A stretch of 64,000 nucleotides of DNA from Eledone cirrhosa. Its lineage: Eukaryota. The DNA lies in NCBI GenBank assembly GCA_964016885.1, contig CAXHJY010001325.1:1-64000 (forward strand), given 5' to 3'. Shown here piece after piece: positions 17,553-23,170 of this stretch (positions are counted from its first letter, which is position 1; every line of letters starts with the position of its first letter). The notes beneath the pieces are model-generated. The model saw only the letters and a list, made by a program, of their open reading frames with translations. It did no database searches and was not told the origin of the DNA. Made by a program: the position numbers and the translations under genes.

Positions 17553-18318
17553 CATCATCATCATCATCATCACCGTTTTACGTCCGTTCTTCCACGCTAG
17601 CATGGGTTAGACGGGTTGTCCTGTTGTGGGCAGTGTCTGGTTGGCTGACCATGCCTTGCTCATACAGGAACTGATCTGGCTTGATTTCTACAGCTGGATG
17701 CCCTTCCTAACACCAACCTCATTTACAGTGAGTGCTGGGTGCTTTTTCGTGGCGCCTACATGTCCACTTTACAGTGTGGGCTGGGTGCTTTTTTGCCGTG
17801 GCACCTCCACGACCACCTTACGGTGGGGGGAGTGGGGGCATATTGTTTATATGCTTCAGCATGTACCCATGGGAGGTCGGGTACCCTGTATTACTGCGTG
17901 ACGCCAGAAGTCACGGTCGTGTGTCATTGGCTTTGAGAGGTGTAGTTGGGTAAGGTCGGCTTTTATCACCTCATCCCAAGTCATCTTGGGTCTCCCCACT
18001 CCGCGGTTTCCATCAACTTCTAGTACTCTGCACCTTTTTATGCAGCTGTCATCCTTCATACGCATCACATGTCCATACCAGCGTAACCGCCTCTCCTGCA
18101 CGCAGCATTTGATTCCTCTTATGCTCAGTCTCTCTCTCAATTCCTTTATGCTTTGTCGTTCACGTATATTACTGTTACACATCCATCGGAGCATGCAGGC
18201 TTCGTTTCTCTCTAATCTACGTAAGTCTTCCACCTTCAGCGCCCAGGTCTCACTACCATGCAACATCGCTGTTCGGATACACGCATCATACAGTCTGCCT
18301 TTCATTCTGAGGGAGAAG
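17553..18318 (-). mobile_element. RTE-A LINE, 5'-truncated
   Basis: [13 protein letters not shown]...PPMGTC*, 3' UTR and (GAT)n tail. Confidence 0.93.
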
Positions 18319-18482
18319 ATACATATGTATATACATACATACATATATATATATACATATATATATACACATATATATATACATACATACATATATATAT
18401 ATACATATATATATACATACATACATATATATATACATACATACATATATATATATACATATATATATACATACATACATAT

Positions 18483-18713
18483 GTAGGAGGTGAGTTTTAT
18501 TGTAGTACAATAAAGCAATGCAGATATCGGATAAGAAGCACTCTACAGTTTGTAGGACTGGAGTATACTCCACAAGTGTTTTTTAGCCTTCATATCACGT
18601 TCTCCTGTTTTATCTGATGAAAACACAAATATTATTGCATGATGATGTTTGTTTTTGAAATGCGCATAATAAAATACATGGAACTCCTTTAACCATCTTT
18701 TGATCTTATATTA
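18483..18713. mobile_element. P2 insertion with a precise internal inversion
   Basis: 18483-18568 is the 3' end (-); 18569-18713 is the adjacent upstream segment (+); compare the colinear copy at 38535-38782. Confidence 0.8.
18606..18676 (+). ncRNA. Minimal type I hammerhead ribozyme (P2)
   Basis: tgttttat-CTGATGA-aaacacaaatatt...gatgtttgttttt-GAAA-tgcgca-TA-ataaaata. Confidence 0.82.
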
Positions 18714-18850: not shown

Positions 18851-19161
18851 ATGACGCAAGACAAATTCAAAATGCGTTATTACTCATATGTCGCATCCTT
18901 TCGACATCCAGAAAAAAGATTTACAACAGCTCTGGCTAGCAGAATTTGGGATTTGAAAGACCAAGGCATCCAATATAAATTGGATTGGTCAATTTTGAAC
19001 CAATCTAAAGAATATGCAAGAGGAACAAGAAAATGCACGCTCTGCATAAATGAAAAATATTTAATTTTGCAAAATCTTAAATCACCAAAGACCTGCCTGA
19101 ACACAAAGACGGAAATTTTCACCAGTTGCCCACACATGAAATCACACCTGCTTTCCAGCTC
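18851..19161 (+). pseudogene. C-terminal part of a PLE-type GIY-YIG endonuclease (family P3)
   Basis: [12 protein letters not shown]...LASRIWDLK...WSIL...[11 protein letters not shown]...LNTKTEI..CPH; TA tracts on both sides. Confidence 0.75.
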
Positions 19162-19187
19162 ATATATATATATACATATATATATAT

Positions 19188-19315: not shown

Positions 19316-19496
19316 ATTTTCGTTGCTATGGCAATGCGGCTGGACTGCCGATCACTATATTTGATTTGCAAAGCTGTCTAAACGTATTGTTATTACTCTG
19401 GGGTACTATTCCCTATTGAGTGCTAAAGCTACATCCCGAATTTGCATTCGTTAGCTTGGCTGCAACCTAAAGCTTCGTTAATGCTGTACTAAAATT

Positions 19497-19497
<1 letters not shown>
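19316..19497 (+). mobile_element. P3-type 3' terminal segment
   Basis: Diverged homologue of 19790-19945 (gctgtctaa, tgttattactctg, gcttggct, aagcttc, tactaaa). Confidence 0.6.
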
Positions 19498-19542
<45 letters not shown>

Positions 19543-19545
<3 letters not shown>

Positions 19546-19950
19546 GAAAAAGCACGTGATAGTTGAGGCATTAGCCACTGCTAACAAGAGTGGCTTACTC
19601 CTTCATACCACACCGGGTCAAGGCACAGAACAGAAACCTGTTGATAACATGAATCCTCAGTTCGGTCTTCAAACACCAAAAACTTGCATACTTGATTTTG
19701 GATTCATAGAAACCTATTGGAGAAACGACGATCTGCCTCCAAGATGGTCCAGGTTTGTTTATTAACCTGTTGGTTTTTTCATTGCTTCGGTGTCGTGGCT
19801 AGGCTTGACTGCCACAGGTTTCAATTTGTGATGCTGTCTAACGAATGTTATTACTCTGAGATTCCTCATGGAGAGCTTGGCTTCATAATTCCTGATAGTA
19901 TCTCGTTGGCTTGGCTACAGCCGAAGCTTCAATTTTACTAAACTTCCATT
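19543..19950 (+). mobile_element. Non-coding hammerhead-bearing island (P3-related terminal repeat)
   Basis: Flanked by TA tracts; contains a full hammerhead; 3' part homologous to 19316-19497. Confidence 0.65.
19634..19756 (+). ncRNA. Type I hammerhead ribozyme, U3-A8 core variant, long stems II and III
   Basis: aaacctg-TTGATAA-c.atgaatcc...ggattcat.a-GAAA-cc.ta.ttggag...ctccaa.gat.gg-TC-caggttt; GUC site at 19747-19749. Confidence 0.82.
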
Positions 19951-20039
19951 TGTATATATATATATTTATATATCACAGCACGCCATTTTTCATTCCTATA
20001 TATATACATATATATACACACACATAAATATATAAACAC

Positions 20040-20264: not shown

Positions 20265-23170
20265 TTTTCTGGGTGGGAAATAACAATGGGCTGCAGGTAG
20301 TAGATATGTTGGTAGATAAGGTAATCTCTGTAGATGGAGTAAACGCGAGAATAATTAAACTCAGACTAGTCCTAAATAGAACAATGGCTACAATTATATC
20401 TACATAGACACCCCAATTTGGGTTGTCAGACGAACTGAAAAATAGGTTTTACAAATCCTTAATGCACACTACTGCACAAACGAATGACAGTGACTTCCTA
20501 ATCATCATGAGGGATTTTAATGGACACATTGGGAAACACTGTGATGGCTTCTACAGAGTCCATGGAGGCTACAGGTTTGGCACAAGAAATGAAGAAGGTT
20601 TCAGGTTCCTAGAATTCTGCGACACCAATGACCTATCGATAATTAACACAAACTTCTAAAAACACAACAACCACCTGATCACCTATAGATCTGGTGAACA
20701 TGCTAGTTAGATAGATTTTATCCTTACCAGGGGACAAGATAGAATGACAGGGGTAAACATGAAATCCTTCCCTGGTCAGAAATGCACCTCCCATCATAAC
20801 CTAGTAGTTAGCAATTTCATTGTCTGAGCTAGATGAACTTGGAGACTGAGGGCAACCTGGAGGAGAAGAATATGGAAGTTGAAAGAGCCCTCAGCCAGTA
20901 ACAAATTTAGTGATATTTTGCTCAACACCTATAACAGTAAAGAAGAACAGATAGAGAAGAGTATTGGGATACAGAAGAGTATTGGGATTTCCTGAAAGAT
21001 AATCAACTGAAGGTGACAGACGAGATCTGTGGATAGAGCAGGGATACACAGAGAAGGAGAATGACTTGGTAGATGAGACAATTAAGGCCAAGAGACGGGC
21101 ATGGAAAAATAGAAGAATGGGGGAAACAGGGTACACTACATAGAGGCCAGGAGGGAAGCTATGTGATCAGTATACTTTGCAAGGAGGAAAGCATGTTTTG
21201 CAGTGTGAAGACAAGAAACAGGAGGTGTTTGGGATTGTGAGGAAGTGTATTAGGGAAAATTGTGATATCATTGGAGAGAAGTATGTCTGTGATGATAAAG
21301 ATGCACTTGCTCTCACAGACGTGGGAAAGAAAATAGCATGGAAGAGCCATTATTAAAGATTACTGGATGAGGAGAATGCATGGGAGAAGGAGAGTTTACT
21401 CCAGGTGTATCCAACAGAGGGCCCAGCAGTGTAGTAAGGCAATTGAGGATATGAAAACTGGGAAAGCAGCCAAACCATTGGGGATAGTTGCTGAGATGCT
21501 GAAACCAACCGGGTCAGTAGGTCACACCTTCACTACAAGTATTGTAAACCAAGTAATACTAGATGGTGTCATACCAAATGATTGGTGCAGCAGCATCATT
21601 GTCAATGGCTACAAGGGTAAAGGAGATGCACTAGATAGAGGAAATTATAGAGGCATCAAGTTGATGGACCAGGTCATGAAAGTGACAGTCATAGCACAGC
21701 TGATTAGGGATCAGGTTAATCTACATGAGATGCAGTTCGGATATGTGCCAGGTAAAAGCCCCACAGATGTTCTTTTCCTGGTGAAGCAGCTACAGGAGAA
21801 ATACATAGCTAAAAGTAAGCGACTCTACCTGGCATTTGTTGATTTGGAGAGGCTTTTGACAGTCCCCCCGGGTCATAATACGGTGGGCTCTTAGAAAACT
21901 AGGAGTAGATGAGTGGCTTGTGAAGGTTGTACAAGCCATGTATAGGGAAGCAGTCAGCAAAGTTAGGATTAACAACTATAACGAAGAATTTAGTGTGTAG
22001 GTTGGCATCCACCAGGGCTCTGTTCTTAGCCCTCTCCTGTTTATTATCATACTGAAAGCCTAGAAATAAAGGGTCTTAAAGTCAACCTGACAAAAATTAA
22101 GGTCCTAGTAAGTAGAAATAAAAACAGACCCCTGATCGCTTCAGGAAAATGCCCATTCTCAGTGTGTAAGAAAAGTGTTGGTAGAAATTCCATCCTCTGT
22201 CCCAAATGCAAACTATAGATACACAAGAGATGTAGTTGGTTTTCAGGTAGTCTAGCTAAGAATGCAGGTTTTACATGTAGCCATTGCACAGACACAGTAA
22301 ACAGCAAACGACTACAGGAAAAAGCGCTATCAAATTCTGGGAAGGTTCGGTAGAAACAGTAGACAACTTCTGCTACCTGGGTGACCAAATTAACAGCAGA
22401 GGTGGGTGTTCCTAAAATACAGTAGCCAGAGTGAGAACAGGATGGAAGAAGTTCAGGGAACTATTACCACTGCTAGCTACAAAAGGCTTTTCCCTCAAAA
22501 TGAGAGGCAGATTTTATGATGCGTGCATATGAACAACAATGTTGCATGGCAGTGAGACCTGAGTACTGCATGCAGAAGACTTGCAAAGATTGCAAAGAAA
22601 TGAAGCTAACAAGCTCCTATGGATGTGTAATAGTAATATACATGAACAGTAAATCATAAACAGAGAGAAACTAGGCATAAAAGGAATCAGATGCAGTGTG
22701 CAAGAGAGGAGATTATGTTGGTATGGACATGAGATGTATATGAAGGATGACAATGACATAAAAAGATGCAGAGCGCTGAAAATGAAGCTGTGGAATGGGA
22801 AGACCCAGGAAGACTTGGGATGAAGTGATAAAAGCTGACCTTGCCCAACTGCACCTCTGAAAAGCAATGACATAAGACCAAGATCTCTGGCTTTACGCAG
22901 TAATACAGAAAACCCACCTTACCATGATCACAGGCGGAAGCATAAATATGTAGCATATACCACTTTCACCTCCACCCCACCCCACTCTTCTATACACCTC
23001 CCAATATAACAGGCTGAAGCATACATCTACTGTGCTCTACCCAACCCCCTTCTGTTACCTCCCACGTTCTAACACTGCCCTGCACACACACCCAAATACC
23101 CACCTCCCCAATCCACCACACACTTCTCCCACCAAAACCACCAGCCCACACTGTAAAGTGGTTATAATGG
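20265..23170 (+). mobile_element. Old, degenerate RTE LINE including the APE endonuclease and RT
   Basis: RIIKLRL, DFNGHIG, GTRNEEG, INTNF, NYRGIKLMDQVMK, AFVDLE; many stops and frameshifts; RTE-A/B-like 3' UTR. Confidence 0.88.

What the first reader, a model, noticed from the sequence alone, without database searches (positions are those of the whole stretch)
19634..19756. Large hammerhead with compensated U3-A8 core (UUGAUAA)
Seen: perfect 7-bp stem I (aaacctg/caggttt), 8-bp base of stem II (atgaatcc/ggattcat) around a ~45-nt insert, long stem III (ttggag/ctccaa) and a GUC site. Known: C3-G8 is a tertiary Watson-Crick pair, so U3-A8 is a compensated change and not decay. Standard CUGANGA searches would miss it. 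The island's 3' part is homologous to 19316-19497, which follows a CxLC-type GIY-YIG end, linking it to family P3 (inference).
Basis: partly seen in the sequence, partly recalled or inferred. Interest (0 to 1): 0.75.

Follow-up and report, generated by a model that had tools for sequence, protein, structure and literature searches.

The report
Hammerhead core swaps through wobble pair
This is a hammerhead (self-cutting RNA) motif carried by a short non-coding jumping repeat; its swapped core base pair is already published, but sister families show that pair in all three pairing forms and the copies' starts pile up at the predicted cut site, which suggests these variant ribozymes likely do cut in the animal.

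Summary
The motif is there as described, plus a C·A mismatch at the base of stem II. It lies in a 5'-truncated copy (19544-19955) of a ~613-nt non-coding, retrozyme-like repeat (family A) in a (TA)n tract. U3-A8 is the family consensus (29 of 29 other copies), but this swap is published (Perreault 2011; Cervera 2014), and this scan noted it before in other repeats of this genome. Two points are new in my searches. Homologous families keep the same large hammerhead with C3-G8 (236 matches) or U3 plus A8/G8 (755; 54 A8, 46 G8 in the 100 rows listed), but C3·A8 only twice; subfamily changes pass through U·G. And 5' ends of insertions pile up 0-25 nt after the predicted cut (67 of 193 at risk) and almost never in the 25 nt before it (1 of 126): a likely footprint of cleavage. 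Against: C-G and U·G subfamilies stop equally often, family A folds weakly, and there are no RNA data. The link to the neighbouring GIY-YIG fragment is not supported: that Hydra-type element has its own 3' UTR and a canonical hammerhead. New variant of a known kind.

The parts
19544..19955 (+). 5'-truncated insertion of family A (unit ~613 nt, no ORF), between (TA)n tracts; ends at the family's fixed 3' end
   Evidence: 392 of 412 aligned positions match the family consensus; 3' end +207 from the cut in 29 of 60 anchored copies; longest open stretch ~100 codons
19634..19640 (+). stem I, 5' strand
   Evidence: pair probabilities 0.9-1.0, outermost 0.52; one pair changes on both sides across families
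19641..19647 (+). core U3 U4 G5 A6 U7 A8 A9
   Evidence: T3 and A8 in 29 of 29 other copies; pair 3-8 is UA 7, UG 5, CG 4, other 1 in 17 chosen representatives
19648..19708 (+). stem II: C19648·A19708 mismatch at its base, 8-bp helix 19649-19656/19700-19707, 43-nt insert with a private 17-nt deletion after 19691
   Evidence: base position unpaired in 17 of 17 representatives, two helix pairs change on both sides
19709..19749 (+). G12 A13 A14 A15.1, stem III (three junction pairs, internal loop, six distal pairs), U16.1 and C17; predicted cut after 19749
   Evidence: junction pairs only 0.31-0.36 probable in this copy
19750..19756 (+). stem I, 3' strand; start of the predicted 3' cleavage product
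   Evidence: 29 of 53 family A insertions at risk begin within 25 nt after this point, 0 of 24 in the 25 nt before it
19316..19501 (+). separate 5'-truncated insertion of sister family B (post-cut part only, no hammerhead left)
   Evidence: B copies run upstream into their own large hammerhead, not into a GIY-YIG ORF
18851..19166 (+). neighbour, not part of the element: C-terminal endonuclease fragment of an abundant Hydra-type Penelope-like family
   Evidence: RWK, DKT, CxCX5C, CxxC and CxH motifs read in the 719-codon ORF, as listed in PMC8557442; Pfam gives no hit

Best explanation
This is the hammerhead of a ~610-650-nt non-coding, retrozyme-like repeat lineage whose RNA is likely cut at this site and is likely copied into TA microsatellites by a borrowed Penelope-type reverse transcriptase. 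Shown: the motif; the family; the head-to-tail unit without ORF; one main fixed 3' end about 207-225 nt after the cut; variable 5' ends; (TA)n flanks; the three pairing states of the 3-8 core pair; the sharp pile-up of 5' ends just after the cut. Inferred: a tandem locus is transcribed, the ribozyme cuts after C17, reverse transcription starts inside the RNA at the fixed site and runs back. On a cut linear RNA it falls off at the cut, giving ~200-nt copies without a hammerhead. On an uncut multimer or a re-ligated circle it runs through, giving copies such as this one and the partial tandems. Selection on active master copies kept 3-8 paired, so the pair moved one step at a time between U-A, U·G and C-G. 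The enzyme donor is not identified; a Hydra-type element is the likeliest because it is abundant here and shares the (TA)n target and the mismatch at the base of stem II.
For: Family: 381 candidates for the hammerhead part, 751 for the 3' part; unit 604-621 nt in five independent tandems. Sisters: B 2,602 candidates, D 2,326, G 1,631, 98-99% identical, in 609-nt arrays of at least seven units, homologous outside the ribozyme (0 of 200 shuffles as high). Core states with one descriptor: C3-G8 236, U3-R8 755, C3·A8 2. ML tree of 35 chosen rows with positions 3 and 8 masked: five state changes, four between subfamilies and each via U·G; the fifth is one C·A copy. 5' ends: A 29 of 53 in 0..+25 versus 0 of 24 in -25..-1; B 17 of 57 versus 1 of 40; D 21 of 83 versus 0 of 62; rate ratios to -100..-1 are 66, 7 and 14 (p 3e-14, 6e-6, 9e-10). 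Inside stem I (0..+6) 12 ends, in -7..-1 one (p 0.002). More TA-rich windows upstream have lower rates. B, D and G fold into the three-way junction as their minimum-energy structure. U3-A8 is reported active in vitro (PMC3088659, citing a paper I could not read). Internal RT start and AT-rich targets are shown for a Poseidon element (PMC11167929).
Against: Within family B the C3-G8 and U3·G8 subfamilies stop at the cut equally often (7 of 21 and 11 of 36, by-eye count, before the tandem correction), though a wobble core should be slower (recalled). Most ends sit at +10 to +16 on TA-like letters, not at 0. The family A consensus does not fold into the hammerhead as its minimum-energy structure, and this copy's stem III base is weak. 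For the Anolis element the ribozyme was not needed for insertion, cut only with protein, and no RNA reads ended at the cut (PMC11167929). Eight of nine Xenopus retrozyme dimers did not cleave in vitro (10.64898/2026.07.22.740005). Copy counts reflect a few masters, so 236:755:2 is not an independent sample. Direction of change inside B differs between the two trees. No autonomous relative was found.
Confidence: 0.7

Rival explanations
1. The hammerhead is real but the variant cores cut little in vivo; the pile-up of 5' ends comes from the reverse transcriptase stalling at the folded junction, from TA microhomology, or from a transcription start next to the cut.
For: Equal stop fractions for C3-G8 and U3·G8 subfamilies; modal ends at +10 to +16 on TA-like letters; no reads at the cut for the Anolis element (PMC11167929); Penelope repeats carry internal promoters (PMC6765202, passages).
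Against: Ends enter stem I (12 in 0..+6) and stop at the cut (1 in -7..-1). The family with the weakest fold (A, -36 kcal/mol) stops most and the one with the strongest (B, -66) less (Fisher p 0.01). TA-richer windows upstream stop less. A start site would have to coincide with the cut in three families.
Confidence: 0.2
2. The repeat is the terminal repeat (pLTR) of an autonomous Penelope-like element, as the first reader proposed for the adjacent GIY-YIG family, and the copies are its truncated ends.
For: Fixed 3' end, 5' truncation, partial tandems and (TA)n targets are Penelope traits (PMC8557442); Hydra-type hammerheads here share the stem II base mismatch.
Against: In tandems the 3' end joins the unit's own start, with no ORF. 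The adjacent family has another 3' UTR in 39 of 39 other loci and no homology around its hammerhead. RT/EN hits in flanks are scattered fragments in both orientations; the mapped 5' ends of the anchored copies lie within the unit or its tandem.
Confidence: 0.07
3. A chance or decayed hammerhead-like motif with no function.
For: z -1.52 and no Rfam hit; this copy is about 5% from consensus and has a deletion.
Against: Core kept across families about 75% identical, two-sided stem changes, C·A avoided, 5' ends bounded by the cut.
Confidence: 0.03

Closest known systems
Metazoan non-LTR retrozymes (Cervera and de la Pena 2020, PMC7229834, passages read; Li, Clavereau and Pollet 2026, 10.64898/2026.07.22.740005, parts 1 and 3 of 5 read)
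   Same: Non-coding head-to-tail unit with one type I hammerhead, dispersed and tandem copies, proposed mobilisation by Penelope-like enzymes.
   Different: Unit 610-650 nt against 220-390 nt in the passages read; hammerhead 125-190 nt with long stems II and III; non-canonical cores; family A is mostly truncated monomers; circular RNA not shown here.
U3-A8 hammerheads: natural variants of Perreault et al. 2011 (PMC3088659, section 8 and passages read) and Cercyon elements of Schistosoma mansoni (PMC4209133, parts 1-2 of 4 read)
   Same: Same compensated core; genome-wide family; extra nucleotide after A9.
   Different: The Schistosoma motifs are minimal, lack stem III and are thought to act as dimers; these have a full stem III, no G10.1-C11.1 pair, and abundant U3·G8 sisters, which the text I read does not mention.
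Hydra-clade Penelope-like elements (Craig et al. 2021, PMC8557442, section 11 and passages read)
   Same: (TA)n targeting, partial tandems, hammerhead near the 3' end; present in this genome in tens of thousands of fragments.
   Different: No ORF and no sequence homology to the one Hydra-type family examined.
Poseidon element of Anolis (Frangieh et al. 2024, PMC11167929, parts 1-2 of 4 read)
   Same: Reverse transcription starts inside the RNA downstream of the hammerhead; AT-rich targets.
   Different: It has two start sites and no sign of RNA ends at the cut; here one main 3' end and a strong boundary of 5' ends at the cut.

Membership tests
Type I hammerhead ribozyme | Core U4 G5 A6 N7, A9, G12 A13 A14, A15.1-U16.1, H17 in type I order | tested here: met
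   some rows were picked by a pattern holding these letters, but A and B were found by plain similarity
Type I hammerhead ribozyme | Watson-Crick pair 3-8 | tested here: met
   U3-A8 in 29 of 29 other family A copies; sisters C-G or U·G, C·A 2 matches
Type I hammerhead ribozyme | Three helices supported by covariation | tested here: met
   stem I one pair and stem II two pairs change on both sides; 85.6% of cells paired, slid controls 19-45%; stem III differs in sequence and length but reforms in B, D, G. Related rows inflate the shuffle test
Type I hammerhead ribozyme | Pair directly at the base of stem II (usually G10.1-C11.1) | tested here: not met
   unpaired in 17 of 17; natural mismatches at this place are reported (U-U, PMC3088659), so this lowers expected speed, not membership
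Type I hammerhead ribozyme | Self-cleavage after H17 | not testable with these tools
   indirect only: 5' ends bounded by the cut
Non-LTR retrozyme | Non-coding tandem unit with a type I hammerhead in each unit | tested here: met
   A partial tandems; D multi-unit copies; G arrays. Two full hammerheads in a row were not seen in family A itself
Non-LTR retrozyme | Unit of about 220-390 nt as in described animal families | tested here: not met
   604-655 nt; a typical size, not a strict rule
Non-LTR retrozyme | Expressed as linear and circular monomer RNA | not testable with these tools
   no RNA holder listed
Autonomous Penelope-like element (Hydra clade) | ORF with RT and GIY-YIG endonuclease | tested here: not met
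   longest open stretches ~100 codons in A and B, 63 in G
Autonomous Penelope-like element (Hydra clade) | Homology to the terminal repeat of the adjacent family | tested here: not met
Penelope-type insertion | Fixed 3' end, 5' truncation, partial tandem, (TA)n target | tested here: met
   3' end mode: A 29 of 60, B 55 of 70, D 63 of 90
Penelope-type insertion | Inverted 5' copy and second 3' end (tail) | tested here: inconclusive
   inverted neighbour within 400 nt: A 0 of 60, B 1 of 70; no clear second 3' end

The most novel reading that the evidence does not exclude
One retrozyme lineage has walked the catalytic-core pair of the hammerhead between U-A, U·G and C-G at least four times while amplifying to thousands of copies; wobble-core ribozymes cut about as well as canonical ones in vivo (helped by long stems or by the Penelope protein); and the 5' ends of genomic copies are a fossil read-out of ribozyme cleavage in the germ line, showing that cut RNA is a main template for Penelope-type reverse transcription.
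Probability: 0.4. Interest if true: 0.65.

Novelty: new variant of a known kind. Interest (0 to 1): 0.45.

Why it matters
What Penelope and retrozyme hammerheads do in vivo is open: papers read here call their function unclear (PMC8557442) or found them dispensable in vitro (PMC11167929). A boundary of insertion ends at the cut in three families is genomic evidence that cut RNA is copied. A natural series C-G, U·G, U-A on one scaffold, with a very young member (family G), gives a ready test of how far the core tolerates a wobble pair. Practically, CUGANGA searches miss about three quarters of this lineage (755 of 993 descriptor matches). The U3-A8 swap alone is not news.

Tried and rejected
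Rfam at gathering threshold: no match in the window. blastn of the island against the window missed the B homology; pairwise alignment found it. Pfam on the 719-codon ORF: nothing. RNA: no RNA holder listed; four contig runs of one study carry the family but say nothing on expression. Link to the adjacent GIY-YIG family: rejected. Search for an autonomous relative through flanks and through the deepest family G: only another non-coding array family. An early idea that no insertion passes a second cut site was dropped: B and D have such copies. 'Family D is a C3-G8 sister': wrong, the seed copy was 1 of 34; the rest are U3·G8 or U3-A8. 'C3-G8 is ancestral': not established; the ML tree puts U3-A8 at the deep branches and C3-G8 nested in B, FastTree puts C3-G8 basal in B. 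Stop fraction as a measure of core strength: A higher than B and D, but no difference inside B. Papers: searches showed no report of natural U3·G8 hammerheads or of 5' ends at the cut; PMC1986816, PMC2271363 and PMC5785218 are not held, and no supplement was read (the alignments in the supplements of PMC4209133, PMC3088659 and PMC8557442 could hold U3·G8 rows).

Full report
Observation. The sequence shows a type I hammerhead at the stated place: stem I 19634-19640/19750-19756, core TTGATAA, 8-bp stem II round a 43-nt insert, GAAA, stem III and GUC with C17 at 19749. Alone the motif is modest: z -1.52, no Rfam match, stem III junction pairs about 0.35 probable.

Family A. The window's genome (3.0 Gb; earlier scan notes call it a cephalopod, not tested here) gives 381 candidates for the hammerhead part, 40 scored. 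This copy matches the consensus at 392 of 412 positions and has a private 17-nt deletion in the insert. Copies share a 3' end before (TA)n and vary at the 5' end; five independent ones run head-to-tail into a previous unit of 604-621 nt with no ORF beyond about 100 codons.

Sister families. The piece at 19316-19501 belongs to family B (2,602 candidates, best 40 at 95-98%), whose longer copies carry a homologous ~190-nt hammerhead. A descriptor of the shared architecture gave 236 matches with C3-G8, 755 with U3 and A8 or G8 (54 and 46 in the 100 listed rows by hand, 16 and 14 in the first 30 by script) and 2 with C3·A8; reversed controls 0. It led to family D (2,326 candidates, 619 nt; of 34 hammerheads 21 U3·G8, 12 U3-A8, 1 C3-G8) and family G (1,631 candidates, 98-99% identical, 609-nt arrays of at least seven units, U3-A8 in all 60 hits from overlapping loci, homologous to A, B and D outside the ribozyme). 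A, B and D are about 75% identical over aligned columns. In 17 hand-picked representatives the core columns are invariant, N7 varies, stems I and II change on both sides, and the base of stem II is never paired. In an ML tree of 35 chosen rows with positions 3 and 8 masked, four subfamily-level changes suffice and each is one step to or from U·G; one single copy is C·A. A FastTree of 146 rows (10 of 156 dropped for microsatellite flanks) gives the same adjacency but roots B the other way, so direction is open. Copies descend from few masters, so the tree, not the counts, carries the argument.

Ends of the copies. I anchored copies on exact motifs 87-102 nt after the predicted cut and mapped their 5' ends. 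A: all 60 matches, 59 insertions. B: 70 loci from the first 75 of 139 matches, 65 insertions; five rows of one triplicated tandem were dropped, two apparent duplicates and two rows held under other ids were not included, one tandem was merged. D: the first 95 of 516 matches, 90 insertions. After moving five upstream tandem units to their insertion, ends in 0..+25 versus -25..-1 are 29 of 53 versus 0 of 24 (A), 17 of 57 versus 1 of 40 (B), 21 of 83 versus 0 of 62 (D); a sliding window peaks over this stretch in all three. The window width was chosen after seeing the data. Twelve ends fall inside the 3' strand of stem I and one in the seven bases before the cut. Stalling at structure would predict the opposite ranking of A and B. 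Against this reading: most ends sit on TA-like letters at +10 to +16; D subfamilies differ from the consensus there, which shifts calls by a few bases; and inside B, where a downstream variant is fully linked to core state, C-G and U·G types stop equally often (7 of 21, 11 of 36). Some B and D insertions pass a second cut site, so uncut multimers or circles also serve as templates.

The proposed link. 18851-19166 is a fragment of a family with 52,668 candidates and a 719-codon ORF bearing the Hydra-clade motifs listed in PMC8557442. Its 39 other loci continue into a 3' UTR unrelated to A or B, and it has its own canonical hammerhead with no homology around it. Three different elements landed in one TA tract. 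A Hydra-type enzyme remains a plausible donor in trans, by inference from target and hammerhead shape only.

Mechanism. Likely: tandem transcript, cut after C17, internal start of reverse transcription at the fixed site 207-225 nt downstream (as shown in principle for an Anolis element, PMC11167929), priming in (TA)n, run-off at the cut on cut RNA, read-through on uncut or circular RNA. The window copy is a read-through copy that stopped about 90 nt above the hammerhead. Cleavage, expression, circles and the donor are untested; no RNA run was listed.

Comparison. U3-A8 is in print for natural hammerheads (PMC3088659) and for about 1,300 Schistosoma Penelope-like motifs (PMC4209133). The element works like a non-LTR retrozyme (PMC7229834; 10.64898/2026.07.22.740005) with a longer unit and larger ribozyme. 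Six searches showed no report of amplified natural U3·G8 cores or of this end boundary, but three key papers are not held and no supplements were read. The scan has noted U3-A8 retrozymes on other DNA of this genome several times and cut-RNA templates for another family; a look-up with this sequence found none. These notes are unchecked and are not counted as support.

Verdict. Real, family-wide, compensated core in a retrozyme-like lineage: new variant of a known kind, interest 0.45. The value lies in the three-state core series and the end boundary, not in U3-A8 as such.

Noticed in passing
window 18607-18676 (+), 38591 (+), about 38383 (-), about 13177 (-): Four near-identical canonical hammerheads with a short palindromic stem III; the island 18484-18712 is a further repeat family unrelated to A and B.
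   Followed up: partly
L241-L250, L217-L240: Very abundant Hydra-type family (719-codon ORF) with a canonical hammerhead that also has a mismatch at the base of stem II, and two 3' ends about 37 and 117 nt after its cut; Pfam misses the ORF.
   Followed up: partly
G000:C1:375510867-375514859 and L434-L463: Family G: very young 609-nt arrays with the U3-A8 large hammerhead; the best candidate for RNA and cleavage tests.
   Followed up: partly
L043 (same locus as L108): A family A copy with an internal deletion that rejoins exactly at the predicted cut site, as a template switch at a cut RNA end would give.
   Followed up: no
L313, L329, L341: Further divergent families of the same lineage (E, F), one or two copies seen each; U3-A8 in L329 and L341, C·A in L313.
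   Followed up: no
L245, L221, L246 flanks: Small canonical hammerheads repeated at about 312-nt and 470-nt periods, matching unit sizes in earlier scan notes.
   Followed up: no
L063/L064/L067: One family B tandem that starts exactly at the cut site is present three times about 32 kb apart, a local segmental triplication.
   Followed up: partly
window about 18000-18330 and 20270-21500: Higher-GC stretches that look like broken LINE-type coding fragments (impression only, no test run).
   Followed up: no
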